Assembly: GCA_963732935.1 (NCBI GenBank)
Contig: CAVTBK010000004.1
Span: forward strand, 258,327 to 322,326
From: an uncultured Acidobacteriota bacterium
GTDB lineage: Bacteria > Acidobacteriota > Vicinamibacteria > Fen-336
Reading direction: 5' to 3'
DNA: 64,000 nt
The notes beneath the pieces were generated by a model. It made no database searches and was not told the DNA's origin. It saw only the letters and a program-made list of their open reading frames with translations. The position numbers were made by a program, and so were the translations under genes. Of this stretch, positions 1,908 through 27,149 are shown in pieces (within the stretch, counting starts at the first letter, position 1; each line of letters begins with the position of its first letter).

Positions 1908-1963
1908 GGGAGGACCTCCGGACCGGGTGTCGAAAGACAGGCTTCAGCGGGTGAACGAGGAGG

Positions 1964-2212
1964 TCAGATCTGCGGCGGCCCGCGCGGAGCGCGGGGGCGG
2001 GAGGCATCCCGCGAGGCGGGCGCGTTCGCGACGGCCCATTCCCGCCTCACCGCCGCGACCATGGGATCGCTCGGCAGGAGGAAGAGAAGCGGCAGCAGCA
2101 GCGGTGGGACCAGGACGGCGATCAGGAGCAGCGCGGAGACGACCAGCCAGAACCCGACCGCTCGACCGTAGCTGAACTCGATGCGCGAGAGCGTGCCCTG
2201 GTATCCCATCAC
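1964..2212 (-). CDS. Hypothetical small membrane protein (82 aa) upstream of secA
   Basis: ORF MMGYQGTLSRIEFSYGRAVGFWLVVSALLLIAVLV... with one hydrophobic helix and GC3-rich codons in its first two thirds. No recognisable family. Confidence 0.25.
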   Translation of the reverse strand: MMGYQGTLSRIEFSYGRAVGFWLVVSALLLIAVLVPPLLLPLLFLLPSDPMVAAVRREWAVANAPASRDASRPRAPRGPPQI

Positions 2213-2307
2213 TCAGTGCCTCTTTGCGAGGCTCCAGCAACACCCTACGACGGCGCCGGCGCGAAGGCAAACAGGTAACCCGCGGCGACAGCAGGCCCCA
2301 GGGCCGG

Positions 2308-10884: not shown

Positions 10885-13863
10885 TCAGCGCGCCGGAGCC
10901 GGGATGCTCCGGGCCATGCGCTCGACGTACCTCTGCAGCTCCGGGTCGATCGGCGCCTGCTCGTCGATGGAGCGAGCGGTGTCGAGGGCGTCCTCGGCCT
11001 CCCGCCACTTGTCCTGGCGGGCGAGCGCGGCCGCCAGCCGCAGCCAGGCGGAGACGTTCGCCGGCTCGAGACGCAGCAGGGCCCGGTGCGCCTGCTCGGC
11101 ACGCGGGTAGTCGCGGCGGTCGAGCGCGATCAGCCCCAACCCCTCCCAGGCGCGGGCGCGCGTGGGATCGACGCGCACGGCCTCGGCCAGCTGGGACTCG
11201 GCTTCTTTCTGTCGGCCCTGCTCGAGCAGGAGCGCGCCGGCGCGTGCGCTGGCGGTCGCGTCGGCGGGGTCGCGACGCTTCGCCGTCTCGAAGGCCCGGA
11301 TCGCGCGCTCGGCCTGTCCCGCCCTCGCGTAGCGCTCACCCAGCCGATCGAAGAAGACCGCGGAGATCGCCCCGCCGGCGGCGAGCAGGGGCTGACCCGC
11401 GATCCGGCCGGTGACGTCGCCGGAGGCACGGCTCAGCGCCTGGTATTGAGCCGCGGCCGAGCGCGCGGCTGCGGCGGGCCGGATCACGTTGCGCCGCGGC
11501 GCCACCAGCTCGAGGTACGGATAGTCGTCCGTGTTGAGCCGGACCCGGGCATGGGGACCGGTCCCGAGCCATCGCTCCATGTCCTTTCGTCCCATGGCCC
11601 AGGTCGCCGCGAGACCGACCGGGTCCTGGAGAACGCGCGTCGAGCGCAGGTCGCCCCCGATCCGCTCGTCACCGAAGGCCTGCTCGAGCCGCGGCCAGTC
11701 GAGCGCGCGGGGCTCAAGGCTGCCGACCAGCAGCAGGTCGGCCCCGAGGTTGCGCGAGCCGTCCTCGCTTTCGGCCGGAGGGACCAGCCAGAGCGAGGCG
11801 TGATCGAAGACGGACAGGAAGGTCCGGAGCTCGACCTTCACGTCCGCGGGCTCGAGATCATAGTAGTGGAACCACTGGCCGAAGACCCCGCCCGGCCGGA
11901 GCGCCGCGCGCGCGGCCAGGTAGAACTCCCGCGTGAAGAGGTTCGAAACCCCGGTGATCCACGGGTTCGAGGGCTCGGAGACGATCACGTCGTAGCCGGC
12001 AGGTCGGCGCAGCAGGTGGTTCCGTCCGTCGGCGAAGATGATGCGGAAGCGCGGATCGCTCGCCAGGCCTCCGCTGAGATCGCCGAAGAACCGTGCGGCC
12101 TGCCAGGTCGCGGGCTCGATCTCGACGCACTCGAGCTTCTCGAGAGGGTAGCGCGCGGCCGAGGCTGCGGTGGCGCCCGCGCCCCACCCGATCACGAGCG
12201 CCGTCCGTGGGGCCGGGTGAAGCAGGAGCGGCACGTGCGCGATGAACTTCTGGGTGACCACGTCCTCGCGGCCGCTGCCCGCGTCGGTCTTCCCGTTCAG
12301 GGACAGGAAGCGGCGACCCGGGTGCTCGCGCGACTCCGAGACGGCGACCACCGCCTCCTTTCCCTCCCGGTAGAACAGCAGCGAGCGCTGCTGCCGGAGC
12401 CAGTGCCCGAGCCCGCTCGGCGGGACCAGCCGGTCGCTCCAGTCCAGGCCGTAGCGATAGACGCCGGACGACATCAGCACCGGATCCCAGGGGTGGAAGC
12501 GCGGCACCACGACTCCGAGAGCCGTGGCCAGGAGCGCGAGCGCCGCCAGCCGGAGCGGGCGCCGCGCGCCGGCGCTCTCCAGGAGAGCCAGCAGCGCGCC
12601 CAGCAGCAGCAGGCCGGCAAACACGAGGTACGGCGGCTGGAGGCCGAGCCGGGGTACCAGCCAGAGGCCGGTGACGAGCGCCGCGACCACGGCCGCGATC
12701 GTGTTCCAGGCATAGAGGCGGCCCGCCGCCTGCTGCGAGGCGCCCGGTGCGACGTTCAGCAGGTGCAGGAGCATCGGAAAGGACAGCCCGAGCAGGACCG
12801 TCGTGGGCAGCAGCACGGCGAGGCAGAGAAGGAGGCTCGCCGCCTGGTGCGCGGCGAAGGAGACCGGCAGCAGTCCCAGCAGTCCCAGCCACAGCGACGG
12901 CAGCCGGCCGATCAGCCATTGGCCGGCGAGGATCCCGGCGCCGGCGCCCGCGAAGACCAGGGCGACCGCGCGGGCCGGGCGACCGATCCGGCCCCGCACG
13001 CGCGCGTAGAGCAGCGAGCCGAGGGCGATCCCCAGCAGGACCGCGAGCAGCATGGTGTTGAAGGCGTAGGTCGAGGAGCCGATCACGAGCGCGAGCGAGC
13101 GCGTCCAGACGAGCTCCACTCCGAAGGTGGCCGCGCCCGAGAGGGCGGCGAGCGCGAGGCCGAGGGCCGCCCCCGGGGCGCCGACGGGCGCCGCGGGGGG
13201 CGAAGGGGCGGGAGCCGGCGGCGGCCCCAGCTCTCGCGCGAGCCGCAACGCGACACCGCCCACGAAGAGGCTCGAGGCGGCGGCGGCCACGAGCGTTCCC
13301 CGTACCCCGACCGTCTCCATCAGCACGAAGCCGGCGAGGGCGACGCCGAGGGCGCCGCCCAGGGTATTGAGAAGGTAGAGCCGTCCGAAGCCCGCACGGA
13401 CGTCGGCGCCCGCGCGCTCGAGGAACGCGAGCGCGAGCGGCACGGTGGCGCCCAGCAGGACCGTCGCCGGCAGCAGCACCAGCGCGGAGAGCAGGACGCG
13501 GCCGGCGGCCTCGACGGGAGCGCCGATCGCCGCGCGCGCGACGAGGCCCCCGTAGGCCCAGGGCAGGGCACGCAGCAGCGGCAGGGTCAGAAGAGCGCTG
13601 GCGCCGACCGCCAGCTCGACCCGCGCATAGTCGCGGAGCGGGTCGCGGCTGGGCCGGCGCGCCGCGAGGGCGCTGCCCAGGGCGAGCCCGCCCAGGAAGA
13701 CGGCGAGCACCATCGCCACGGCGGAGGTGGTGTTCCCGAAGATGAGGCCGAACGAGCGCATCCAGAGGGACTCGTAGACGAGAGCCGCGGCACCCGAGAC
13801 GGCCACCAGCAGAGGCAGCAGACGGGCGGCACGGCCGAGCGCGACGTCGGCGGGACGTGTCAT
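10885..13863 (-). CDS. Membrane-fused spermidine synthase-like (PABS fold) protein with C-terminal TPR repeats
   Basis: ~12 TM helices in the N-terminal 450 aa. The central methyltransferase/PABS-like domain carries VIGWGAGATAASAARYPLEKLECVEIEP…DGRNHLLRRPAGYDVIVSEPSNPW. The C-terminal ~200 aa are TPR-like. Confidence 0.85.
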   Translation of the reverse strand: MTRPADVALGRAARLLPLLVAVSGAAALVYESLWMRSFGLIFGNTTSAVAMVLAVFLGGLALGSALAARRPSRDPLRDYARVELAVGASALLTLPLLRALPWAYGGLVARAAIGAPVEAAGRVLLSALVLLPATVLLGATVPLALAFLERAGADVRAGFGRLYLLNTLGGALGVALAGFVLMETVGVRGTLVAAAASSLFVGGVALRLARELGPPPAPAPSPPAAPVGAPGAALGLALAALSGAATFGVELVWTRSLALVIGSSTYAFNTMLLAVLLGIALGSLLYARVRGRIGRPARAVALVFAGAGAGILAGQWLIGRLPSLWLGLLGLLPVSFAAHQAASLLLCLAVLLPTTVLLGLSFPMLLHLLNVAPGASQQAAGRLYAWNTIAAVVAALVTGLWLVPRLGLQPPYLVFAGLLLLGALLALLESAGARRPLRLAALALLATALGVVVPRFHPWDPVLMSSGVYRYGLDWSDRLVPPSGLGHWLRQQRSLLFYREGKEAVVAVSESREHPGRRFLSLNGKTDAGSGREDVVTQKFIAHVPLLLHPAPRTALVIGWGAGATAASAARYPLEKLECVEIEPATWQAARFFGDLSGGLASDPRFRIIFADGRNHLLRRPAGYDVIVSEPSNPWITGVSNLFTREFYLAARAALRPGGVFGQWFHYYDLEPADVKVELRTFLSVFDHASLWLVPPAESEDGSRNLGADLLLVGSLEPRALDWPRLEQAFGDERIGGDLRSTRVLQDPVGLAATWAMGRKDMERWLGTGPHARVRLNTDDYPYLELVAPRRNVIRPAAAARSAAAQYQALSRASGDVTGRIAGQPLLAAGGAISAVFFDRLGERYARAGQAERAIRAFETAKRRDPADATASARAGALLLEQGRQKEAESQLAEAVRVDPTRARAWEGLGLIALDRRDYPRAEQAHRALLRLEPANVSAWLRLAAALARQDKWREAEDALDTARSIDEQAPIDPELQRYVERMARSIPAPAR

Positions 13864-18217: not shown

Positions 18218-20228
18218 ATCCGCCGCCCCGGGCGAGCCCGAGCCGGGTGGCGGTGCGGACCTCCGGCTCGAGCTCGATCCGGCCCGAGACTACGGCCGCG
18301 GCATGAGCACCTCGACCTGCACCGACTGCTTGGTGCCGTCGGCCCGTACGTAGTCGAGACCGGTGCGCAGGTACGTGTCCCGGTCTGGCGGAAGCGCGAG
18401 CTGGAAGTCGGTCAGCAGGGGCTTGCCGTCGCCGAGCATGGGCTTCGCCGGGGACAGCCACTGCTGGGGGAGCCACTTGCCGTCGACGCGAGCGGCCGCG
18501 CTCATCGCGAACGGGCCGTCGACGCCGGGACCCGGGTCGAGCGTCCAGCGCGACGTCAGCAACGAGCCCGGCTTCCAGCGCAGCGGGAAGCGCCAGGAGA
18601 GCACCAGGTCGGGCACGTCGAGGAGCCCGCAGCGCGCCACGCGCAGGCTGACGTCGGACACGCACCGGCAGATCGGCGCCGAGGCGCCGACCGGCGCCGG
18701 CGACAACACCGCGCACGGCAGCTCGCCCTGCGAGCCGTCCGAAGACTCGGCAGCGCCGATGTCCACGGCTCGGCCTTGGACGCGCCGCGCCTGGTACACG
18801 TCCCAGGGGCCGATCTCCGGCGCCGAGTTCGAGCCGGCGTCGATCGCCGGCGAGCCGGGGTCCAGCCGGTAGTCGTCCGTGGCGGGGTCGACGAAATGCG
18901 GGTCCTCGAACAGGTTGTTCGAACCCGTGACGCCCGCCGGCCCGTCGACACCGTTGCCGAACACGATGCTGTTGTCGAGGCGCACCGCGCCGCCGCCCAC
19001 CGCCACGCCGGCACCGGTGTGGCCCGTCACCGTGAGGTTGGTCAGGTACACGGTCCCGCCCTCAAGAGCCGTCGCGAGGATGCCGCTGCTGTCGCCGCCC
19101 CCGCCCGCCACGACGCTGTCCGAGAGCACTGCCACACCCGTCCCGCCATCGGTCACGGCGACCTGCCACGCCCCAGCGTCGTCGGCCGGCACGTTGCGCA
19201 GGATCTGGTTGCGGCGGGCCGTCAGGCGCGCCGCGCCCGGACCGTCGTACGAGCTCGTCGCGAAGAGCGAGATCTCGGGTCCGCCCTGGTGCGTGTCCGA
19301 CGAGCTGCGGTTGTCGACGAACCAGTTGTCCCAGACGTCGACGGTGGCGTTCTGCGCGGCGTTTGCGGACAACGCCGAACCGTAGGTCTGGCCGGGCGCG
19401 TGGATCGTATTGCGGAGGAAGTGGTTGGACTCGAGCAATACGTTGCTGTGGCCAGTCGCGTAGACGAAGGCCCCACCGGTGGCTCCGGCATCCGTGGCCT
19501 CATGCGAGTTGTCCGTGAAGTAGTTGCCTCGCCAGGTCATCCGTGCGGATCCGACGAGATAGGCATGCGCGAAGGCCCTGCCGCTGGCCTCCACCGTGTG
19601 GTTGTCCCAGACCGCGCTCTCCGACACCTCGACCTGGGCATGGTCGTCAGCCCAGATGTCGAGCCCGGAGGCGCTTGGCCCCGGCCCACCGCCCGTCAAC
19701 ACCAGACCTCTCACGATCAGCACGCCCGAACTGCTCGCCTGCAGCACGGGACCGTCGAGAGCGCCCTGGACGACGGTGTTCTCCGCGGCGGCGGGGTCCT
19801 GCGGAGAGGGATGAGGCACGCCGCCGAAGCTGTCTGACCATCCCCCGCTGATCGTGAGCGACTCACCGGAAGCGACCCAGACGCTGAGGTTCTCTGGGTA
19901 ACGGCCGCGCGCGACCCGGATCTCGACGGGTCTCGCCGACGTTCCCGCGGCGTCGATCGCGGCCTGGATCGTCGCATAGCCGCCCGCACGCCCGACCGTC
20001 AGCACCGACGGATCCGCGCTGGCGGCCGACGCCAGGGCGCACGCCCCCACGACCGACACGATCACTCGCACTCCTCTTCCGGCCTGCCTCATGGTTCGCT
20101 CCTCGGCACCGTGATGGCGCCTTCTGCTTGTTTGGGCTTTCCTTCTGTGGCGCACGCCCGGGCGGGGCGTTACGGGAGGGGGCACGCCAAGCCGCCTGTA
20201 ACGCCGGACCCGCTGCGCACGCCCAAGT
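18218..20228. repeat. Tandem direct repeat unit 1 (~2.0 kb): beta-helix gene plus ~135 bp of its 5-prime region
   Basis: Aligns base for base with 20282-22301 at both ends (for example 20093-20228 versus 22165-22301). The central part of the gene has diverged. Confidence 0.85.
18290..20092 (-). CDS. Secreted right-handed parallel beta-helix protein with a choice-of-anchor-Q-like motif (copy A of a tandem pair), 600 aa
   Basis: Start MRQAGRGVRVIVSVVGACALASAASA (signal peptide; ATG 20092, RBS GAGGAG). Repetitive G/N/T/S/V-rich beta-helix core (…NHFLRNTIHAPG…VDNRSSSD…ILRNV…). NNLFEDPHFVDPATDDYRLDPGSPAIDAGSN matches the choice-of-anchor-Q signature. C-terminal ~190-aa Cys-containing domain. Confidence 0.8.
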   Translation of the reverse strand: MRQAGRGVRVIVSVVGACALASAASADPSVLTVGRAGGYATIQAAIDAAGTSARPVEIRVARGRYPENLSVWVASGESLTISGGWSDSFGGVPHPSPQDPAAAENTVVQGALDGPVLQASSSGVLIVRGLVLTGGGPGPSASGLDIWADDHAQVEVSESAVWDNHTVEASGRAFAHAYLVGSARMTWRGNYFTDNSHEATDAGATGGAFVYATGHSNVLLESNHFLRNTIHAPGQTYGSALSANAAQNATVDVWDNWFVDNRSSSDTHQGGPEISLFATSSYDGPGAARLTARRNQILRNVPADDAGAWQVAVTDGGTGVAVLSDSVVAGGGGDSSGILATALEGGTVYLTNLTVTGHTGAGVAVGGGAVRLDNSIVFGNGVDGPAGVTGSNNLFEDPHFVDPATDDYRLDPGSPAIDAGSNSAPEIGPWDVYQARRVQGRAVDIGAAESSDGSQGELPCAVLSPAPVGASAPICRCVSDVSLRVARCGLLDVPDLVLSWRFPLRWKPGSLLTSRWTLDPGPGVDGPFAMSAAARVDGKWLPQQWLSPAKPMLGDGKPLLTDFQLALPPDRDTYLRTGLDYVRADGTKQSVQVEVLMPRP

Positions 20229-20281
20229 TTGGGAGGGTGAAGCGCGGGTCGGGCTGCCATTGAGGCCGCGCCCTCGGGGCG

Positions 20282-22301
20282 GCGATCCGCCCCAGGCGAG
20301 CCCGAGCCGGGGCGGTGCGGCCCCCCGGCTCGAGCTCGATCCGGCCCGAGACTACGGCCGCGGCATGAGCACCTCGACCTGCACCGACTGCTTGGTGCCG
20401 TCGGCCCGTACGTAGTCGAGACCGGTGCGCAGGTACGTGTCCCGGTCCGCCGGAAGCGCGAGCTGGAAGTCCGTCAGCAGGGGCTTGCCGTCGCCGAGCA
20501 TGGGCTTCGCCGGGGACAGCCACTGCTGGGGGAGCCACTTGCCGTCGACGCGAGCGGCCGCGCTCATCGCGAACGGGCCGTCGACGCCGGGACCCGGGTC
20601 GAGCGTCCAGCGCGACGTCAGCAACGAGCCCGGCTTCCAGCGCAGCGGGAAGCGCCAGGAGAGCACCAGGTCGGGCACGTCGAGGAGCCCGCAGCGCGCC
20701 ACGCGCAGGCTGACGTCGGACACGCACCGGCAGATCGGCGCCGAGGCGCCGACCGGCGCCGGCGACAACACCGCGCACGGCAGCTCGCCCTGCGAGCCAT
20801 CCGAAGACTCGGCAGCGCCGATGTCCACGGCTCGGCCTTGGACGCGCCGCGCCTGGTACACGTCCCAGGGGCCGATCTCGGGCGCGGAGTTCGAGCCGGC
20901 GTCGATCGCCGGCGAGCCGGGGTCCAGCCGGTAGTCGTCCGTGGCGGGGTCGACGAAATGCGGGTCCTCGAACAGGTTGTTCGAACCCGCGACGCCCGCC
21001 GGCCCGTCGACACCGTTGCCGAACACGATGCTGTTGTCCAGGTGTACATCACCGCCCAGGCTGGTCACGCCGGCACCGGTGTGGCCGGTCACCGTCAGGT
21101 TGGTCAGATACACCGACCCGCCCTCGAGAGCGGTCTCGCCGACGCCACTGCTGTCTCCGCCACCGCCCGCCACGACGCTGTCCGAGAGCACCGTCACGCC
21201 CGCCCCGAGGCTGCAGACGCTGATCTGCCAGGCTCGGCCGTCGGCCGGGACGTTACGCAGGATCTGGTTGCGGCGGGCCGTCACCCGCGGCGACCCGGGA
21301 CCGCCGATCGAGCCGCTCTCGGCACAGAGCTGTATCGCCGGCCCCGGGTCGCCTGTGTCCGAGACGCTGCGATTCTCGACGAACCGGTTGTCTCGCACGT
21401 CCATCGTGGCGTCCTGCTGGGCATGCGCGGTTAACGCTGATTCGTAGGCCTGATCCGGCGCGTGGATCGAGTTGCGCAGGAACTGATTCGCCTCGATCCA
21501 CACGCTGCTGTGACCGGTCGCGAGGACATCGGCGCCTCCGTTGACCCAGGCCCCGGCGCCCGTGGCTTCGGACGAGTTGTCCGTGAAGTAGTTGCCTCTC
21601 CAGGTCATTCGTGCCGATCCGTCGACGCGAGCCTGCGCGAAGCCCCAGCCGCCCGAGTCCACGACCGTGTGGTTGTCCCAGACCGCGCTGTCCGACACCT
21701 CGACCTGGGCAGAATCGTGGGCCCAGATGTCGAGCCCGGAGGGCGTTTGGCCCCACCCCGCCGCCCGTCAGCACGAGACCCTTCACGATCAGTACGCCCC
21801 AACTGGTCGCCTGCAGCACGGGTCCGTCGAGAGCGCCCCGGACGACGGTGTTCTCCGCGGCGGCGGGGTCTTGCGGAGAGGGATGAGGCACGCCGCCGAA
21901 GCTGTCTGACCATCCCCCGCTGATCGTGAGCGACTCACCGGAAGTGACCCAGACGCTGAGGTTCTCGAGGTAGCGGCCGTGCGCGACCCGGATCTCGACG
22001 GGTCTCGCCGACGCTCCCGCGGCGTCGATCGCGGCCTGGATCGTCGCATAGTCGCCCGCACGCCCGACCGTCAGCACCAACGGATCCGCGCTGGCGGCCG
22101 ATGCCAGGGCGCACGCCCCCACGACCGACACGATCACTCGCACTCCTCTTCCGGCCTGCCTCATGGTTCGCTCCTCGGCACCGCGATGGCGCCTTCTGCT
22201 TGTTTGGGCTTTCCTTCTGTGGCGCACGCCCGGGCGGGGCGTTACGGGAGGGGGTGCGCCAAGGCCGCCTGTAACGCCGGACCCGCTGCGCACGCCCAAG
22301 T
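20282..22301. repeat. Tandem direct repeat unit 2
   Basis: See unit 1; period ~2070 bp. Confidence 0.85.
20352..22164 (-). pseudogene. Copy B of the beta-helix gene; the reading frame is broken by one extra C near 21741 (pseudogene or sequencing error)
   Basis: The N-terminal 134 aa and C-terminal ~220 aa are essentially identical to copy A at nucleotide level. The middle ~250 aa is ~65-70% identical. The track splits it into 20352-21698 and 21253-22893 in different frames. Aligned to copy A, the site reads gccctcc versus gcctcc. Confidence 0.6.
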
Positions 22302-22398
22302 GCGCGAGGACAACGTGCGCATCGGTCCCGGTCGCGGTGGCCGTCGGTCCAATCGAAACCGGAGGTGCTAGAATGCCGTCTCGCTTCAGCCCAGCAGA

Positions 22399-22980
22399 AT
22401 GGCCACTCACGAAGATGCGGACCTCGTCCAGCGCTTTCTCCGCGGGGAACCGGCCGCCGCGGCGAGGATCGACGGCTGGATCGCCGCCGCCGCCTGGTCT
22501 TTCAGGCGCCGCCTGCTCTCGGAGTGGGACGACCTGCTCCAGGAGATCCGGCTCGAGGCCCTGCGCCTGCTCGGCGCCGGACATTTCCGCGGCGAGTCCC
22601 GGCTCAAGACCTACTTGTGGCAGGTGGCCTGTCACACCTGCCTGGACGCCGTGCGCCGGCAGCGGCGGCGCACGTTCCTCGACCTCGATGCCATTGAGGC
22701 CGCGCCCTCGGGGGCTCCCTCGCCGTTCGACGTCCTGGCGCGTCGAGAGCACCGCGCCGCGGCGCTTCGCGCCCTCGAGACCCTCTCGGACGAGTGCCGG
22801 GACGTCTGGACGAGACTGCTGCAAGGCGCGAGCTATCGCGACATCTCGCGGGCGCTGGCGGTGTCCGAGGGCGCTTTGAGGGTGCGCGCACACCGCTGCC
22901 GCAAGTCGGCGGTCGAAGCCTATCGCGCGGCGACGCGACTCGCCCCGCGCGCCGCGGAGGGTGAGGATGCTCTGCCCTGA
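22399..22980 (+). CDS. ECF (sigma-70 family group 4) RNA polymerase sigma factor
   Basis: Region-2-like DLLQEIRLEALRLLGAGHFRGESRLKTYLWQVACHTCLDAVRR and region-4 HTH SYRDISRALAVSEGALRVRAHRCRKS. Its stop overlaps the start of the downstream anti-sigma ORF by 14 nt. Confidence 0.85.
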   Translation: MATHEDADLVQRFLRGEPAAAARIDGWIAAAAWSFRRRLLSEWDDLLQEIRLEALRLLGAGHFRGESRLKTYLWQVACHTCLDAVRRQRRRTFLDLDAIEAAPSGAPSPFDVLARREHRAAALRALETLSDECRDVWTRLLQGASYRDISRALAVSEGALRVRAHRCRKSAVEAYRAATRLAPRAAEGEDALP

Positions 22981-23857
22981 GGCCGTCGAGAGGCTTCCCG
23001 AGCTGCTGAACGGCAGCCTGCCGTCGGAACCGAGGGCGGAGGTCGAAGCCCACCTCGCCGATTGCGCGCCCTGCCGCGAGGAGTGGGAGGAGACACGCCA
23101 AGGTGCCGCGGTCTTCAGCGCGCATCTCCCGACGGACGCGCTCGTGGCGCTCGCCTGGGACCGCCCGCTGCCCGGGCTCGATCCGGACCTCGCCCGCCGT
23201 CATCTCGACGCCTGCGCCGACTGTCGCGAGGACCTGGCACTCGCGCGCGAGAGCCGGTCTCGCGAGAGGGCCGAGGAACGCCTCGCCCCGCGCCGCGTCT
23301 CCTGGGCGCTGCCGGCGAGCCTGGCCGCGGGTCTCGTGGCGGCGGCGCTCGTCGCAGGCTTCGCCTTGGGATCGCGGCGCGCGCAGACCCATCTCGCCCA
23401 GGCGGACGCCGCCCGGCGGCAGGCCGTCGAGACAGCCGCGCGCTTCGGAGCCGAGACGGACCACCTGCGTCAAGTCGAGTCGGAGCTCCGCGCTCGCCTG
23501 GCGCGTCTCGCCGCGCCCCGGATCAACCTGCCGGTGCTCGAGCTGCTGCCCGGCTCCACGCTGACCCGCGGCGCCTCGCAGCCCCGAGCCCGAGCTCGAC
23601 CTCGGCGCCGAGGACACGCTCGCCGCGCTGGTCCTCAGCGTTCCCACGAACCGAAGCGGCCTCACGGCCGAGCTGCGCGACGTACGGGGGCGGTTGCTCT
23701 GGAAGGCCGCCGGCCTGGAGCCGAGCACCCTCGGCGGCTATGCGCTCGCCGTGCCGGCCGATCTGCTCCCCGAGGGGCGGCTGACTCTGTCCCTCGTTCC
23801 CGAACACGGCGGGCCGACGCTCGCCAGGTTGCCCTTCCGGGTAGGCGGACACCGTGA
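22967..23857 (+). CDS. Anti-sigma factor, ZAS/zf-HC2 type, single TM. Only the first ~200 aa of this ORF look genuine; the true C-terminus is probably reached via frame switches (see findings)
   Basis: Two HxxxCxxC motifs (EAHLADCAPCREEW; RHLDACADCRED), then the TM helix WALPASLAAGLVAAALVAGFALG, then coiled coil. After ~23575 the frame turns into R/P/G-rich nonsense while the +1 frame reads like protein. Confidence 0.65.
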   Translation: MLCPEAVERLPELLNGSLPSEPRAEVEAHLADCAPCREEWEETRQGAAVFSAHLPTDALVALAWDRPLPGLDPDLARRHLDACADCREDLALARESRSRERAEERLAPRRVSWALPASLAAGLVAAALVAGFALGSRRAQTHLAQADAARRQAVETAARFGAETDHLRQVESELRARLARLAAPRINLPVLELLPGSTLTRGASQPRARARPRRRGHARRAGPQRSHEPKRPHGRAARRTGAVALEGRRPGAEHPRRLCARRAGRSAPRGAADSVPRSRTRRADARQVALPGRRTP

Positions 23858-24092
23858 GCCCGACCCCCGCCGCTCTCCTGGCTGCTCGGCGTCTGCGGCG
23901 CGCTGGTCGCATCGCCCGTCGAGGGAGCCCGACTCCGCGTGAAGGAGGTGACTCCGGAGCTGGCGGCGGCGAAAGCGGGCCTGGATCCCGGCGACGTGCT
24001 GCTGAGCTGGCGGCAGGGCGCCGGAAGCGGGAGCGCTCGCCTCGCCGCTCGACCTGCTGGAGATCGAGATCGCACGCGGACCTCGCGGCCCG

Positions 24093-27000
24093 GTGGCCCT
24101 CGATTGTGAGCGAGACGGACGCGCGCTCGCGGTCTCGCTCTTCCCCGACCAGTGGGGCCTCGACGCCCAGTTGTCAGGAGACGACGCTGGCGAGCCCTCG
24201 GCCGCCGCCTGGACGCGACTCGAACGGGCGGTGAGCCTGATCGAAACGGACCTCGAGCAGGCGCGCCGAACGGCAGTCCAGGCGGCGAACGCCGCTCCTA
24301 CGCCCAGCGCTCGTGCGCTCGTGCGCTTCGCCTTCGCCGAGGCGTTACGGCGACGCTCGCGCTACGCCGAGGCCGCGCGCGAGTACGAGGAGGCGATCCG
24401 GATCGAGGAGCCGCTGGCGGGGAACACTCTGGTGCTCGCCCGCCTCTACGAAGGCGCGGGCTTCGCCGCCTACAGCCTGCTGAAGGACCTGCCGCCCGCA
24501 CGCAGGCGGCTCGAGCGCGGGCTCGCGATCCTCGAGAAGGAGGCGCCCGAGAGCCTCGCCTGCGCGCGCACGCTGCAGGCGCTCGCCCAGACGCTGGACT
24601 CCACCACCGACGCGCAGCGGCTGCTGCTTCGGGCCTCGGCGCTCGCGGAGAAGCTGGCGCCCGATACTCTCACCCACGCCTCGATCCTGTACTCGCTGGC
24701 GTGGGTGACGCCCACGGCGGAGCAGCTCGAGTGGGCACGGCACGCCCTCGCGATCCGCGAGCGTCTGGCGCCGGACAGCGTCGAGCTGGCGGCGGCGCTG
24801 CGTCTCGTCGGTCTCTCGCTGGACAGCTTCGGACGCCGGCAGGAGGCCGAGGCGCACGTGAAACGCGCGGCGCGGCTGCTGGAACGGATCCAGCCGAAGG
24901 GCACGGCGCTCGCAAGCACCCTCGAGAGCCTCGGCGCGATGGCCATGGACTGCGGCGAGCTGGCCGACGCCGAGCGCGCGCTGCGCCGTGCCCTCGCCTT
25001 GCGCCTCGAGCACGGCTTCGCCAGCCACACCGCGATCACGCTCCTGAACCTGGTCGATCTCCTGGTCCTGCGGCGCGATCTCGACGAAGCGCGCGTGGAC
25101 GCGGAGAGGGCGCGCACCATCCTGGAGCGCGAGCTTCCCGACAGCGAGTACCTCGGCTACGCCTGCCGGAGCCTCGGCGAGATCGCCCTGGAGACGGGCG
25201 ACGTCTCCGGCGCCGAGACCTGGTTCCGACGCGCGGTCGCGATCTTCCGCAAGGTCAACCCCACCGGCTTCGCCTTCGGTACCGCCGAGAACGACCTCGG
25301 CCAGGCCCTCGCCCGCGCCGGGCGCCTGGAGGAGGCCCGGGTCGCGCACGAGCACGCGCTGCAGCTCGTCCGCGACGTGGACAACGTCCGTGCGGCGACG
25401 ATCCAGGACGACCTCGCCGCCCTGGCGCTCCAGCGCGGAGACCTGGACACGGCAGAGACGTGGTTCGAAAAGGCGCTGGCCGCACGCCGCCGGCTCGCGC
25501 CCGGCAGCATCTGGGAGGCGATGTCCGAGCACTCCCTCGGGGTCCTGGCACGCCGACGCGGGCGACCACAGCAGGCGCTCGAGCACTTCCAGCGCGCGGT
25601 CGACGCGCTCGACGCCCAGGCACGCCGCTTGGGAGGCGCGCCGGAGGTGGCCGCGGCCTTTCGTGCCCACTACCAGGACTTCTATCGCGATCTCGAGGGG
25701 CTCCTGCTCGAGAGCGGCCACCCGACCGAAGCCTTCACCGTCCTCGATCGGGGACGCGCTCGCGTCTTGCTGGCGCTGCTGGCTCAGCGTGCGATCGTGC
25801 TGCCCGAGCTGCCCGCCGACCTGGAGCGCGAGCGTCGGGAGGCCGATGCCGAGCACGATGCCGTCGTCGAGCAGCTCGCCACCCTCGCCGACCACGACCC
25901 CAAGCGCGCCGAGCTCACCCGGCGCTACGCGGAAGCGCGGCGCCGGCAGGACGAGGTGCGTGCTCGCATCCGTGCCGCAGCGCCGCGCGCGGCGGCGCTC
26001 CTCGATCCGGAGCCGCTCGACCTCGACGGTGTGCGACAGGCCCTCGAGCCCGGCACGCTGCTCCTCGCCTACAGCCTCGGCGCGGACGGCAGCCGCGTCT
26101 ACGCCGTCGGGCCGGGCCCGGCGGATTTCGCCGTCCACGACCTGGCGGCGACCGAGCCTGAGATCCGTCACGCGGTCGAGAGTTTCCGCACGCTCCTGGA
26201 GCGGCGCCGCGGCCCGCTGCTGCGGCACGGACTCGACGAGCAGGCACGCGCCCTGGGGCGGACGCTCGTGCAGCCGGCGGCCGGCGCCCTGGCCCGCGCC
26301 CGGAGGCTCCTGATCGTCCCCGACGGCGTCCTGAACCTGCTCCCTTTCTCGGCGCTCCAGCTCCGCGCTTCGGACGGCCGCTTCCGCTGGCTCGTGGAGG
26401 CGGCGCCGCCGCTCCACCTGGCCGCGTCGGTCACGCTCTACGCGCAGCTCGCGGAGCGTCGAGGGCGCAGCGCCGGGCACGAGGTCGTGGCGTTCGGCGA
26501 CCCCGCCTACGCCGCCGGGCCGGCGGCGGCGCACGACGCCGCAGTGGCCCGTGGGATGGAATGGGGTCTTCGACTGGAGCCGCTGCCTGCGGCGCGCGGG
26601 GAGCTCGCCGCGCTGCGTCAGCTCGCACCCGGCGAGACACGCCTGTGGCTCGGTGCCGAGGCGACCGAAGAGCGAGCGAAGCAGGTGGGATCCGAAGCAC
26701 GGATCATCCATTTCGCGACCCACGGTTTCGTGGACGAGGACTTTCCGCTCGAGTCGGGCCTGGCGCTGGCAACGCCGCCGCCGGGCGACGAGGGCCGCGA
26801 CAACGGCCTGCTCCAGGCCTGGGAGGTCTTCGAGTCGGTCCGGATCGACGCCGACCTCGTCACCCTTTCGGCCTGCCGCACGGCCCTCGGCAAGGAGGTC
26901 GGCGGGGAGGGCCTGGTCGGTCTGACCTGGGCGTTCGAGTATGCGGGCGCGCGCAGCGTGCTGGCCTCGCTGTGGGAGGTGAACGACGCGTCCACAGCCG

Positions 27001-27149
27001 AGCTGATGCGGCAGTTCTACAGCGCGCTTCGCGCTGGAGCACCAACGGCGAAGGCCTTGCGCCAGGCGCAACTGAAGCTGCTGCACCGGCCGGCGACCTC
27101 TGCGCCGTTCTTCTGGGCCGCCTTCCAGCTCGTCGGCGACTGGCGGTAG
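24093..27149 (+). CDS. TPR-repeat + CHAT (caspase-like protease) domain protein. The start is uncertain; this is probably the C-terminal part of a longer anti-sigma-PDZ-TPR-CHAT polypeptide
   Basis: Many TPR-like repeats (residues ~60-520). C-terminal CHAT domain with the catalytic pair …ARIIHFATHGF… and …ADLVTLSACRTALG…, followed by …RSVLASLWEVNDASTAELMRQFY. The frame is open upstream to 24006 and encodes the end of a PDZ domain. Confidence 0.85.
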   Translation: MALDCERDGRALAVSLFPDQWGLDAQLSGDDAGEPSAAAWTRLERAVSLIETDLEQARRTAVQAANAAPTPSARALVRFAFAEALRRRSRYAEAAREYEEAIRIEEPLAGNTLVLARLYEGAGFAAYSLLKDLPPARRRLERGLAILEKEAPESLACARTLQALAQTLDSTTDAQRLLLRASALAEKLAPDTLTHASILYSLAWVTPTAEQLEWARHALAIRERLAPDSVELAAALRLVGLSLDSFGRRQEAEAHVKRAARLLERIQPKGTALASTLESLGAMAMDCGELADAERALRRALALRLEHGFASHTAITLLNLVDLLVLRRDLDEARVDAERARTILERELPDSEYLGYACRSLGEIALETGDVSGAETWFRRAVAIFRKVNPTGFAFGTAENDLGQALARAGRLEEARVAHEHALQLVRDVDNVRAATIQDDLAALALQRGDLDTAETWFEKALAARRRLAPGSIWEAMSEHSLGVLARRRGRPQQALEHFQRAVDALDAQARRLGGAPEVAAAFRAHYQDFYRDLEGLLLESGHPTEAFTVLDRGRARVLLALLAQRAIVLPELPADLERERREADAEHDAVVEQLATLADHDPKRAELTRRYAEARRRQDEVRARIRAAAPRAAALLDPEPLDLDGVRQALEPGTLLLAYSLGADGSRVYAVGPGPADFAVHDLAATEPEIRHAVESFRTLLERRRGPLLRHGLDEQARALGRTLVQPAAGALARARRLLIVPDGVLNLLPFSALQLRASDGRFRWLVEAAPPLHLAASVTLYAQLAERRGRSAGHEVVAFGDPAYAAGPAAAHDAAVARGMEWGLRLEPLPAARGELAALRQLAPGETRLWLGAEATEERAKQVGSEARIIHFATHGFVDEDFPLESGLALATPPPGDEGRDNGLLQAWEVFESVRIDADLVTLSACRTALGKEVGGEGLVGLTWAFEYAGARSVLASLWEVNDASTAELMRQFYSALRAGAPTAKALRQAQLKLLHRPATSAPFFWAAFQLVGDWR

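What the first reader, a model, noticed from the sequence alone, without database searches (positions are those of the whole stretch)
22399..27149. ECF sigma / ZAS anti-sigma pair whose anti-sigma frame continues into a PDZ-TPR-CHAT caspase-like protease: a possible CRISPR-free analogue of the type III-E Craspase-Csx30-RpoE circuit
Seen in sequence: an ECF sigma gene (22399-22980) is translationally coupled to a zf-HC2 (two HxxxCxxC) single-TM anti-sigma gene (from 22967). After the TM helix and a coiled coil, the genuine-looking protein signal hops frames three times (~23575, ~23860, ~24020). If one base is corrected at each site, a single ~1390-aa polypeptide results. Its order is zf-HC2 anti-sigma, TM, a ~90-aa extracytoplasmic segment (PEPELDLGAEDTLAALVLSVPTNRSGLTAELRDVRGRLLWKAAGLEP…), a PDZ domain (…GARLRVKEVTPELAAAKAGLDPGDVLLSWRQG…PLDLLEIEIARGPRGPVALDCERDGRALAVSLFP), ~12 TPRs, and a CHAT domain with intact His (IIHFATHG) and Cys (TLSACRTALG). 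Established knowledge: in type III-E CRISPR loci the TPR-CHAT protease Csx29 (Craspase) cleaves Csx30, which together with Csx31 restrains the ECF sigma factor RpoE. Here the same logic (TPR-CHAT protease, an anti-sigma-like substrate, an ECF sigma) appears compressed into one sigma/anti-sigma operon, with no cas genes anywhere in 64 kb. Even without frame correction, the adjacency of the sigma, the anti-sigma and the TPR-CHAT ORF stands. Inference: a signal-activated CHAT protease releases its own sigma factor by self-cleavage or cleavage in trans. The divergently transcribed, duplicated secreted beta-helix genes 235 bp upstream are the obvious candidate regulon
Basis: partly seen in the sequence, partly recalled or inferred. 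Interest (0 to 1): 0.85.

Follow-up and report, generated by a model that had tools for sequence, protein, structure and literature searches.

The report
Sigma, anti-sigma and secreted CHAT protease
These are three separate, translationally coupled genes (a stress-type sigma factor, its membrane-bound inhibitor and a secreted caspase-like protease), not one giant fusion protein. The trio recurs across Acidobacteria and looks like a split version of the Myxococcus DdvS/DdvA switch.

Summary
The 1390-aa fusion is not real.

- **Separate genes.** A ~97% identical metagenome contig and 30 aligned family members show a stand-alone ~296-aa anti-sigma ending ...RVRRTP at TGA 23855-57. None of the best 150 relatives among 1.84 billion representatives exceeds 459 aa. 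The protease gene starts at GTG 23854 (GTGA overlap).
- **Frame hops.** The window carries four 1-nt indels, two compensating inside the anti-sigma and two in the protease 5' end. They are probably assembly errors.
- **Location.** The protease starts with a signal peptide, so it is periplasmic rather than a cytoplasmic Craspase analogue.
- **Conservation.** A secreted TPR-CHAT gene lies beside this sigma/anti-sigma family in 25 of the related loci examined, in four orientations, against 2-3 clear negatives.
- **Promoter.** A candidate cognate promoter (GTAACG-N14-16-CGCC) precedes the sigma operon, both beta-helix genes, and an unlinked protease orthologue in another genome.
- **Closest known.** M. 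xanthus DdvA, where a ZAS anti-sigma is fused to a periplasmic TPR-CHAT.

Best reading: a split DdvA-like module in which the protease is the trans-acting sensor or site-1 protease. No cleavage has been demonstrated.

The parts
18290..20092 (-). Secreted beta-helix protein, copy 1 (intact, starts MRQAGRG...)
   Evidence: Pfam Beta_helix E = 9e-9. Start at 20092, 56 nt downstream of the promoter motif.
20149..20173 (-). GTAACG-N15-CGCC promoter-like motif pointing at beta-helix copy 1
20198..20223 (+). Orphan copy of the sigma-directed motif, carried along by the duplication
   Evidence: The duplicated region is aligned.
20352..22164 (-). Beta-helix protein, copy 2, broken by a 1-nt insertion near 21743
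   Evidence: Alignment A2, column 673. ORF pieces.
22221..22245 (-). Promoter-like motif pointing at beta-helix copy 2
22271..22296 (+). Promoter-like motif GTAACGCCGGACCCGCTGCGCACGCC, 103 nt upstream of the sigma ATG. Candidate autoregulated ECF promoter.
   Evidence: 4 hits against 0.45 expected. The same motif lies upstream of sigma in L001, L006 and L008. Enrichment is 15 against 0.94 in 214 kb of related loci.
22367..22375 (+). TGCTAGAAT, extended -10-like element 23 nt before the sigma start
   Evidence: Sequence. Similar TAGGAT/TATGAT boxes occur in related loci. Not found by the consensus scan.
22399..22980 (+). ECF sigma factor, 193 aa
   Evidence: Pfam Sigma70_r2 and r4_2. RpoE 1or7 E = 3.9e-10.
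22967..23857 (+). Transmembrane ZAS anti-sigma. It is 296 aa once two compensating 1-nt indels are corrected (+1 at ~23578, -1 at 23842/23843). Between the indels, 88 codons are out of frame in the assembly.
   Evidence: Start overlaps the sigma gene by 14 nt. Stop is TGA 23855-57.
22973..23236 (+). Tandem zf-HC2 / ZAS domain with invariant residues C3 H29 C33 C36 H53 H79 C83 C86
   Evidence: Pfam, two stretches. Invariance in 30 sequences. Weak profile hits to RslA, RsiW and DdvA-Nt.
23303..23371 (+). Single TM helix (WALPASLAAGLVAAALVAGFALG), preceded by basic residues
   Evidence: Part of the long helix in the model.
23567..23569 (+). Codon of the near-invariant Arg201 in the predicted disordered periplasmic loop LLPGSTLTRG. 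Candidate cleavage site (inference).
   Evidence: pLDDT < 50 for loop 196-203. Arg conserved in 93% of 30 aligned sequences, and an Arg-Gly one position out of register is visible in the other two.
23854..27149 (+). Secreted PDZ-like/TPR/CHAT protease. It is 1097 aa once two 1-nt insertions (~23884, ~24021) are removed. GTG start overlaps the anti-sigma stop (GTGA).
   Evidence: Orthologues P0014-P0020 are 58-64% identical over 97-99% of the length.
23854..23925 (+). Signal-peptide-like N-terminus MSPTPAALLALGVCGALVASPVEG
   Evidence: Low-confidence N-terminal helix in the model.
23926..24160 (+). PDZ-like domain, split across two frames in the assembly
   Evidence: Pfam PDZ_6 below threshold. 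PDZ-like fold at residues 29-108 of the P0014 model. Pfam PDZ hits are precomputed for P0038, P0040 and P0085.
24312..25950 (+). TPR array
   Evidence: TPR_12 E = 1.6e-37 among others. Helical repeats 116-720 in the model.
26238..27140 (+). CHAT (caspase-like) domain with catalytic His codon 26721-26723 and Cys codon 26874-26876
   Evidence: Pfam CHAT E = 2.8e-69. His and Cys invariant in 25 family members. Coordinates. Fold matches separase, DdvA and Csx29.

Best explanation
The locus is a three-gene, translationally coupled ECF signalling operon. It encodes sigma (22399-22980), a transmembrane tandem-ZAS anti-sigma (22967-23857) and a secreted PDZ-like/TPR/CHAT caspase-type protease (23854-27149).

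Shown:
- The three are separate genes.
- The anti-sigma has a cytoplasmic zinc-finger sigma-binding domain, one TM helix, a periplasmic coiled-coil stalk, a disordered loop with a near-invariant Arg, and an Ig-like beta-sandwich.
- The protease carries a signal peptide.
- The sigma/anti-sigma family is accompanied by a secreted TPR-CHAT gene in nearly all related Acidobacteriota loci that could be evaluated.

Inferred:
- The periplasmic protease is the signal-sensing partner of the anti-sigma.
- When its N-terminal sensor domain or TPRs bind a ligand, it cuts the anti-sigma's periplasmic part. The candidate site is the conserved ...LLPGxxxxR-G loop between the stalk and the sandwich.
- That cut removes the block to an RseP-type site-2 protease and frees sigma.
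- Sigma then transcribes from GTAACG-N14-16-CGCC promoters: its own operon and the two secreted beta-helix genes.

This makes it a 'split' form of M. xanthus DdvA, in which the same TPR-CHAT module is fused to the anti-sigma.

The four 1-nt indels in the window are most likely assembly errors. If they are real, both genes are inactivated in this strain.
For: **Separate genes**
- L006 (~97% nt identity) has intact sigma, anti-sigma and PDZ genes with a GTGA overlap.
- L007 has the same arrangement, with a CTGA overlap.
- All family members are ~300 aa.

**Periplasmic protease**
- N-terminal hydrophobic signal peptides occur in 29 of 30 family members, against 2 in control internal windows.
- The partner CHAT genes in L009, L013, L017-L021 have lipobox or Sec-type leaders.

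**Conserved linkage**
- 25 positive loci: 15 divergent, 5 co-directional downstream, 3 co-directional upstream, 2 convergent. The window and L009 add two more.
- Linkage that survives rearrangement is the classic sign of a functional tie.

**Rosetta-stone precedent**
- DdvA fuses a ZAS domain, a TM helix and a periplasmic TPR-CHAT. Its authors propose that the CHAT domain is the site-1 protease acting ahead of RseP (PMC11506125).
- DdvA is the best bacterial structural match of the protease model: 8rot_A, E = 9.7e-16, TM 0.43/0.51, 16% identity.

**Catalytic and substrate features**
- The catalytic His and Cys are invariant.
- The conserved Arg sits in a loop with pLDDT < 50.

**Expression pattern**
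- In the clade with the other N-domain, sigma and the CHAT gene sit behind sigma-70-like promoters, while the GTAACG motif precedes downstream target genes. That fits a signalling component rather than a target.
Against: - No cleavage has been shown for any member. Even for DdvA, CHAT activity and the signal remain undemonstrated.
- The closest full-length orthologue, P0014, is unlinked from its sigma/anti-sigma pair (L010 versus L001, same MAG). P0020 also has no sigma nearby.
- P0014 has the GTAACG motif 82 nt upstream. That is equally what a mere regulon member would show.
- Three sigma/anti-sigma loci (L001, L028, and probably L003) have no adjacent CHAT gene.
- Known site-1 proteases (DegS, Prc, PrsW) are usually not encoded beside their anti-sigma (my own knowledge).
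- Co-variation between the anti-sigma C-terminal tail and the PDZ type is confounded by phylogeny and has exceptions.
- In this assembly both genes are frame-disrupted.
Confidence: 0.45

Rival explanations
1. The protease is simply a target or effector of the sigma regulon. It would be a secreted caspase-like enzyme that processes other envelope or secreted proteins (for example the beta-helix, FG-GAP or Sel1 proteins), with no role in releasing sigma.
For: - The GTAACG-N-CGCC motif lies 82 nt upstream of the unlinked orthologue P0014 in L010.
- In the window the gene is co-transcribed with an apparently autoregulated operon.
- The other motif-driven genes are all secreted proteins.
- Orthologues P0014 and P0020 sit away from any ECF sigma.
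Against: - Adjacency to the sigma/anti-sigma pair persists through four gene orders and two different N-terminal sensor domains.
- In the second clade the CHAT gene lacks the motif while true downstream targets have it.
- The DdvA fusion argues for physical coupling of the anti-sigma and TPR-CHAT.
Confidence: 0.3
2. In this particular genome the anti-sigma and protease genes are decaying pseudogenes. The four indels would be real, so the module is non-functional or sigma is constitutively active.
For: - There are four indels within 450 bp and none in the 1280 bp upstream of the same alignment.
- That clustering is unusual for random error.
- The periplasmic part is also the most diverged from L006.
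Against: - The second beta-helix copy also carries a 1-nt indel.
- The source is a 646-kb contig held by NCBI and ENA, like L008 and L009. Those come from long 'contig_N' assemblies whose CHAT genes are visibly shattered by frameshifts.
- The out-of-frame stretches contain no accumulated stops or larger deletions.
Confidence: 0.2
3. One reading: a single ~1390-aa anti-sigma/PDZ/TPR/CHAT polypeptide acts as a CRISPR-free, Craspase-like circuit that frees sigma by self-cleavage.
For: - A DdvA-type fusion exists in Myxococcota.
- One database protein, P0045, is annotated with zf-HC2 + TPR + CHAT.
Against: - The stop codon TGA 23855-57 is conserved, and the GTG start overlaps it.
- None of the best 150 relatives is longer than 459 aa.
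- P0045 is itself a frameshift artefact. An alternative frame gives a normal anti-sigma C-terminus, and the CHAT part starts with a lipoprotein signal.
- A signal peptide in the middle of a polypeptide makes no sense.
Confidence: 0.02

Closest known systems
DdvS/DdvA of Myxococcus xanthus (ECF sigma plus transmembrane ZAS anti-sigma with a periplasmic TPR-CHAT; PMC6061681, PMC11506125; PDB 8ROT, 8RW5, 8RLZ)
   Same: - An ECF sigma is co-encoded with a single-pass anti-sigma that has an N-terminal zinc (CHCC-type) anti-sigma domain.
- A TPR-CHAT module with a His/Cys dyad is located in the periplasm.
- The proposed logic is the same: CHAT acts as site-1 protease, then RseP.
- DdvA is the best bacterial fold match of the protease model.
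- DdvA-Nt is weakly hit by the anti-sigma profile.
   Different: - Here the TPR-CHAT is a separate secreted protein, not the anti-sigma's own C-terminal domain.
- The anti-sigma keeps a small Ig-like periplasmic domain.
- The protease has an extra N-terminal PDZ-like domain, or in a sister clade an unassigned beta-rich domain.
- The zf-HC2 is duplicated.
- The phylum is Acidobacteriota (Thermoanaerobaculia-like), whereas DdvA-like fusions were reported only in Myxococcota and one Comamonas.
- No CBASS or CRISPR genes are nearby. The apparent regulon is made of secreted beta-helix and other envelope proteins.
Type III-E Craspase: Cas7-11/gRAMP-Csx29 (TPR-CHAT) cleaving Csx30, which restrains an ECF-like sigma (PMC10028731)
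   Same: A TPR-CHAT protease is genetically tied to an ECF-type sigma and its inhibitor. The TPR-CHAT fold is shared (Csx29 hits at E ~1e-12 to 1e-13).
   Different: - Craspase is cytoplasmic, RNA-guided and bound to Cas7-11.
- Csx30 is not a ZAS or transmembrane protein.
- Here there are no cas genes and no CRISPR array.
- Here the protease is secreted and the inhibitor is a classical membrane ZAS anti-sigma.
DegS-RseA-sigmaE (and Prc/CtpA-type site-1 proteases) of Proteobacteria
   Same: - A periplasmic protease with a PDZ sensor domain would start regulated intramembrane proteolysis of a single-pass anti-sigma.
- The sigma here is most similar to RpoE among solved structures.
   Different: - DegS is a serine protease, is unlinked to rpoE-rseA, and RseA is not a ZAS protein.
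- Here the catalytic domain is caspase-like CHAT with a long TPR array, and it is encoded in or next to the operon.
ECF54 group (Actinobacteria), with CHAT, subtilase and carboxypeptidase genes in its genomic context (review PMC8999054)
   Same: A recurrent neighbourhood of an ECF sigma and a CHAT-domain protein, interpreted as proteolytic control.
   Different: ECF54 is described as lacking an anti-sigma factor. It belongs to a different phylum, and I have no evidence of homology between the two sigma groups (not tested).

Membership tests
ECF (group IV) sigma factor | Only regions sigma-2 and sigma-4, about 190 aa | tested here: met
   Sigma70_r2 at 25.6 bits (cut-off 24). r4_2 at 24.6 bits (cut-off 25.7, marginal). 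Length 193 aa. RpoE 1or7 E = 3.9e-10.
ECF (group IV) sigma factor | Co-transcribed cognate anti-sigma | tested here: met
   The anti-sigma ATG 22967 overlaps the sigma 3' end by 14 nt. The pair is conserved in all related loci.
ZAS (zf-HC2) class I transmembrane anti-sigma | N-terminal HxxxCxxC zinc motif in a helical anti-sigma domain | tested here: met
   Pfam zf-HC2 E = 7e-14, two stretches. H29/C33/C36 and H79/C83/C86 are invariant in 30 sequences. Residues 1-106 are helical with pLDDT > 84.
ZAS (zf-HC2) class I transmembrane anti-sigma | Single TM helix followed by an extracytoplasmic domain | tested here: met
   A hydrophobic 23-mer at residues 113-135, then a coiled coil and a beta-sandwich. 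Topology is inferred, not measured.
ZAS (zf-HC2) class I transmembrane anti-sigma | Binds and inhibits its sigma; binds zinc | not testable with these tools
   No multimer prediction or biochemistry is available.
DdvA-like anti-sigma | ZAS domain, TM helix and periplasmic TPR-CHAT in one polypeptide | tested here: not met
   Stop TGA 23855-57 and a separate GTG start. Relatives are 165-459 aa.
DdvA-like anti-sigma | TPR-CHAT located in the periplasm with a His/Cys dyad | tested here: met
   Signal peptides. Dyad invariant. Fold match to 8rot_A. Localisation is predicted only.
DdvA-like anti-sigma | Controls an antiphage defence island | tested here: not met
   The neighbours are beta-helix genes and a xylan-utilisation cluster. 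There is no CRISPR array. Only the larger ORFs were scanned.
Type III-E Craspase system | Csx29 associated with Cas7-11/gRAMP, Csx30, Csx31 and a CRISPR array | tested here: not met
   No tandem-repeat array. The large ORFs of the window are GH, TonB-receptor, AAA or TPR proteins. The protease is secreted.
CHAT peptidase (clan CD, Pfam PF12770) | CHAT fold with a catalytic His...Cys dyad | tested here: met
   E = 2.8e-69 over the full profile, 2-289 of 289. Dyad invariant. Separase, DdvA and Csx29 are the top fold hits.
CHAT peptidase (clan CD, Pfam PF12770) | Proteolytic activity | not testable with these tools
   Needs biochemistry.
PDZ domain | Match to a PDZ profile above threshold, or a PDZ fold | tested here: inconclusive
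   Pfam PDZ_6 at 18-20 bits against a cut-off of 27. The beta/alpha pattern in the model is compatible with a bacterial PDZ. Relatives P0038, P0040 and P0085 carry precomputed PDZ hits. No domain-level fold search was run.

The most novel reading that the evidence does not exclude
Acidobacteriota have a widespread, previously undescribed class of ECF signalling. A stand-alone, secreted caspase-like TPR-CHAT protease, with interchangeable N-terminal sensor domains (PDZ-like or an unassigned beta-rich domain), would act in trans as the signal-gated site-1 protease. It would cut a dedicated tandem-ZAS anti-sigma at a conserved Arg in the periplasmic loop. This would be the free-standing ancestor or derivative of the fused DdvA switch.
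Probability: 0.4. Interest if true: 0.7.

Novelty: new variant of a known kind. Interest (0 to 1): 0.55.

Why it matters
- **Testing the DdvA proposal.** DdvA is so far the only characterised anti-sigma linked to a TPR-CHAT. Its proposed caspase-like site-1 cleavage could not be demonstrated, because protease and substrate are one chain and the signal is unknown (PMC11506125). A natural split version puts protease and substrate on two proteins that can be mixed in vitro.
- **Concrete predictions.** It gives a candidate cleavage loop (LLPGxxxxR-G) and a candidate promoter motif and regulon.
- **Wider distribution.** It extends the TPR-CHAT/ECF connection from Myxococcota and CRISPR type III-E to a large, poorly studied phylum: 363 anti-sigma clusters at E <= 1e-30.
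- **A caution for annotators.** Apparent 'anti-sigma-CHAT fusions' in long-read MAGs, such as this window and P0045, can be frameshift artefacts.

Tried and rejected
1. A genome-contig scan with the protease N-terminal alignments. A4 was too diverse. A5 gave 84 pattern hits, none confirmed.
2. Sequence searches of the PDB with the protease or its family profile. They returned only TPR proteins and did not reach DdvA, Csx29 or separase. The fold search was needed.
3. P0045 as a genuine zf-HC2/TPR/CHAT fusion. Rejected: an alternative frame restores a normal anti-sigma C-terminus, and the CHAT part starts with a lipoprotein leader.
4. L008 as a 'no CHAT' locus according to its gene calls. Overturned by a six-frame HMM scan, which showed a shattered PDZ-TPR-CHAT gene.
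5. Co-variation of the anti-sigma C-terminal tail (RVRRxx versus RVQ) with the PDZ or beta-rich protease type, as evidence that PDZ binds the tail. It is suggestive, but confounded by clade and has exceptions in L020 and L041.
6. The fold of the anti-sigma periplasmic domain. It is only a generic Ig-like sandwich, with no hit at E <= 0.001.
7. Retrieving the window's own record through P0002 or P0013. Not on record, and no names are given.
8. The supplement of the ECF re-classification paper (PMC7826278) is not held, so the ECF group of this sigma could not be assigned.
9. Programmed frameshifting. Rejected because close and distant relatives have uninterrupted frames.
10. A window-wide frameshift census from a GC3 frame plot. 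It was too coarse to separate gene boundaries from frameshifts.


Full report
**1. What is in the sequence**

The window is ~71% G+C.

- ORF 22399-22980 is an ECF sigma factor. It matches Sigma70_r2 and r4_2, and its nearest solved relative is E. coli RpoE at 3.9e-10.
- An ORF in the next frame (22961/22967-23857) begins with a zf-HC2 match in two stretches, E = 7e-14.
- ORF 24093-27149 carries many TPRs and a full-length CHAT domain, E = 2.8e-69. It contains IIHFATHG and TLSACRTALG.
- Three-frame translation and GC3 confirm that protein-like signal switches frame between 23560 and 24040.

**2. The fusion is not real**

A search with the stitched N-terminal 445 aa returned only 280-308-aa proteins covering the first ~295 residues. 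All of them end ...FRVRR(T)(P/R).

One of them, P0001, is 92% identical and lies on a 2.9-kb JGI contig, L006. That contig is ~97% identical in DNA to window 22300-24115. L006 has three clean genes:
- sigma, 193 aa;
- anti-sigma, 295 aa, with a TGA stop;
- a gene starting at a GTG that overlaps this stop (GTGA). It reads VSRAPVALLAFGVCGALVASPGEGAGLRVKEV..., which is the PDZ-like N-terminus.

Against L006 the window has exactly four 1-nt indels:
- +1 at ~23578;
- -1 between 23842 and 23843;
- +1 at ~23884;
- +1 at ~24021.

The first two compensate each other. The anti-sigma ORF therefore keeps its true start and true stop (TGA 23855-57), while 88 internal codons are out of frame. Corrected, it is 296 aa, ends RLPFRVRRTP, and aligns end to end with the family. 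The last two indels lie in the 5' end of the protease gene. Corrected, that gene gives a 1097-aa protein.

At family level, a profile of the anti-sigma family finds 363 clusters at E <= 1e-30 among 1.84 billion representatives. The best 150 are 165-459 aa, mostly matched over the whole profile. None is a fusion.

The one database protein annotated zf-HC2 + TPR + CHAT (P0045, 1221 aa) is itself a frameshift artefact. An alternative frame yields a normal anti-sigma C-terminus (...GEYRIHLREENGKTIGDYELRIPSP*), and the CHAT part begins with a lipoprotein-type leader, MSCASRALSAAGTLLALLPAACG.

**3. Are the indels real?**

I cannot see reads. Evidence for assembly error:
- The second beta-helix paralogue also has a 1-nt insertion relative to copy 1.
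- The window's proteins come from a 646-kb contig held by NCBI and ENA. L008 and L009 are of the same kind, long 'contig_N' records, and their CHAT genes are visibly fragmented across frames.

Evidence for real lesions: four indels fall in 450 bp and none in the preceding 1280 bp. I put about 0.2 on genuine pseudogenisation in this strain. Either way, the ancestral state is three intact genes.

**4. Where the protease works**

The corrected protease has orthologues of 58-64% identity over 97-99% of its length (P0014-P0020), and many at 33-47%. Nearly all start with a basic n-region, a hydrophobic stretch and an Ala-rich c-region, followed by the PDZ-like segment.

A crude hydropathy test finds such an N-terminal segment in 29 of 30 sequences, against 2 control internal windows. 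The window reads MSPTPAALLALGVCGALVASPVEG. In L007 the homologous leader appears when a CTG overlapping the anti-sigma stop is used as the start.

The AlphaFold model of P0014 (pLDDT 85.4, pTM 0.79) has four parts:
- a low-confidence N-terminal helix;
- a PDZ-like beta/alpha unit, residues 29-108;
- TPRs, residues 116-720;
- a CHAT domain, residues 735-1092.

The PDZ assignment is only sub-threshold in Pfam.

The window also encodes a TonB-dependent outer-membrane receptor, so the organism is diderm. The protease is therefore predicted to be periplasmic. That is the same compartment as the anti-sigma's C-terminal domain and the opposite side of the membrane from sigma.

**5. The anti-sigma**

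The model of P0001 (pLDDT 83.7) shows these elements in order:
- a helical N-terminal domain, residues 1-106;
- a long helix, residues 127-181;
- a short strand;
- a disordered loop, residues 196-203;
- a seven-to-eight-stranded sandwich, residues 208-293.

The TM segment (window residues 113-135) lies mostly in the low-confidence stretch that precedes the long helix. The sandwich has no specific PDB match.

Across 30 non-redundant members, eight Cys/His are invariant: C3, H29, C33, C36, H53, H79, C83, C86. This is a tandem ZAS. The periplasmic motif P-x2-N-x-P-x2-E/D-L-x-P-(x3-6)-R-G keeps its Arg in 93% of sequences as aligned, and an Arg-Gly one position out of register is visible in the other two. 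The Arg lies in the disordered loop. The first assembly indel sits three codons after it.

The family profile weakly hits RslA, RsiW and the DdvA N-terminal domain.

**6. Conservation of the neighbourhood**

I used gene look-ups, a genome scan (mostly Thermoanaerobaculia MAGs, one Bryobacterales) and a metagenome scan. I then ran six-frame searches with home-made HMMs for sigma, the anti-sigma, the TPR region, the CHAT domain and two N-terminal domain types.

Result: 25 non-redundant loci have a secreted TPR-CHAT gene within 3 kb of the sigma/anti-sigma pair. The window and L009 add two more. Orientations among the 25:

| Orientation relative to the pair | Loci |
|---|---|
| Divergent | 15 |
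| Co-directional, downstream | 5 |
| Co-directional, upstream | 3 |
| Convergent | 2 |

Clear negatives are L001 and L028, and probably L003. Sixteen contigs are too short to judge.

Two clades emerge. In one the protease has the PDZ-like N-domain: the window, L006-L008, L020, L022, L025, L041 and L043. In the other it has an unassigned ~90-aa beta-rich domain (REIGGGExHxY...AGxYLRLRIDQPGIDV) with no Pfam match. All examined partners have Sec or lipoprotein leaders.

Conversely, two close protease orthologues (P0014 in L010, P0020 in L012) are not next to any ECF sigma. P0014 belongs to the same MAG as L001. There, sigma/anti-sigma is followed instead by an FG-GAP/CarboxypepD_reg protein.

**7. 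A candidate cognate promoter**

Comparing regions upstream of sigma revealed GTAACG-N14-16-CGCC.

- In the window it occurs four times, against 0.45 expected. The sites are 56 nt upstream of each beta-helix ATG, 103 nt upstream of the sigma ATG, and one orphan copy created by the duplication.
- In 214 kb of non-redundant related loci it occurs 15 times, against 0.94 +/- 0.89 in dinucleotide shuffles.
- Almost every hit is just upstream of a gene:
  - sigma (L001, L006, L008);
  - the divergent secreted genes (L001, L006, L008);
  - two further secreted proteins in L001;
  - the anti-sigma (L003, L017, L021 and many metagenome loci);
  - the unlinked protease orthologue P0014, 82 nt upstream;
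  - in the second clade, a small membrane protein and a SIMPL/DUF541 protein located right after the CHAT stop.

The motif was first seen by eye in three of these loci, so the statistic is partly circular. The hits in the other loci are independent.

**8. Comparison with known systems**

The held literature contains one directly relevant precedent. M. xanthus DdvA is a transmembrane anti-sigma with a cytoplasmic CHCC zinc domain and a periplasmic TPR-CHAT. Its authors propose that CHAT acts as the site-1 protease, by autoproteolysis in trans, ahead of RseP. They found such fusions only in Myxococcota and one Comamonas (PMC11506125).

Foldseek of the protease model against the PDB gives:

| Target | E-value | Other scores |
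|---|---|---|
| Human separase, 9hn0_B | 3.3e-16 | |
| DdvA, 8rot_A | 9.7e-16 | TM 0.43/0.51, 16% identity |
| Csx29, several entries | ~1e-12 to 1e-13 | |

Craspase-Csx30-sigma (PMC10028731) is cytoplasmic and Cas7-11-bound. Here there is no CRISPR array, and the large ORFs belong to a xylan-utilisation cluster.

ECF54 is reported to have CHAT genes in its context but no anti-sigma (PMC8999054). DegS/RseA offers the functional analogy of a PDZ-gated periplasmic site-1 protease. That comparison rests on established knowledge and is also summarised in PMC10028731.

**9. Mechanism**

Shown:
- three separate, translationally coupled genes;
- a predicted periplasmic protease with an intact dyad;
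- strong, rearrangement-resistant linkage to this anti-sigma family;
- a shared promoter motif.

Inferred, at about 0.45: the protease senses a periplasmic cue through its N-domain or TPRs and cuts the anti-sigma in the conserved Arg loop. That starts regulated intramembrane proteolysis and releases sigma, as a split DdvA would.

The main rival, at about 0.3, is that the protease is only a sigma-controlled secreted effector. The two are not mutually exclusive, because a site-1 protease inside its own regulon would give positive feedback.

**10. Verdict**

The finding as written (giant fusion, Craspase analogue) is not supported. The underlying association is genuine, is conserved, and was not found described in the searchable literature as a split system. 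I rate it a new variant of a known kind, of moderate interest (0.55).

Noticed in passing
window 18290-22300: The secreted beta-helix gene is tandemly duplicated together with its bidirectional promoter region (about 93% identity overall, near-identical 3' halves). Copy 2 carries a 1-nt insertion near 21743. The duplication left an orphan sigma-directed GTAACG motif at 20198-20223 with no sigma gene behind it.
   Followed up: partly
window 22973-23236 (anti-sigma residues 3-86): The anti-sigma family has two complete zinc-type motifs with eight invariant Cys/His (C3 H29 C33 C36 / H53 H79 C83 C86). This is a tandem zf-HC2 rather than the usual single ZAS motif.
   Followed up: partly
L009 8001-11666 (P0045) and L008 8912-12217: Public long-read-style contigs contain frameshift artefacts. 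One creates a false 1221-aa 'zf-HC2-TPR-CHAT' protein. The other shatters a PDZ-TPR-CHAT gene into unannotated fragments, so gene-call-based context analysis misses the CHAT gene.
   Followed up: yes
L013 ~1500-3000, L032, L038, L046, L019 (minus strand, downstream of the CHAT gene): In the clade with the beta-rich N-domain, a GTAACG-N16-CGCC motif sits immediately after the CHAT stop codon. It precedes a conserved ~150-aa membrane protein and a SIMPL/DUF541 periplasmic protein (PF04402, E = 5e-57).
   Followed up: partly
window 22367-22375; related loci upstream of sigma: A sigma-70-like extended -10 (TGCTAGAAT in the window; TAGGAT or TATGAT elsewhere) lies 15-30 nt before the sigma start codon in many loci. 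This suggests basal housekeeping transcription with a very short leader, in addition to the ECF-type motif.
   Followed up: no
L003 2544, L017 6623, L021 6949, L026-L031, L037, L040: In many loci the GTAACG-N-CGCC motif lies inside the last ~40 nt of the sigma gene, 8-40 nt before the anti-sigma start. It could be an internal sigma-dependent promoter giving a near-leaderless anti-sigma transcript (negative feedback), or it could reflect a coding constraint.
   Followed up: no
window 27400-57700: Downstream lies a glucuronoxylan-utilisation cluster: a CE15 glucuronyl esterase whose ORF runs on to 29679 and seems to have lost its stop, a GH3, one 1161-aa ORF combining GH52 and GH10, a GH67 alpha-glucuronidase and a TonB-dependent receptor. 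In L010 the protease orthologue also sits next to a GH3 gene.
   Followed up: partly
window 10885-13863 (-): A 991-aa protein combines a spermidine-synthase-like domain with C-terminal TPRs.
   Followed up: no
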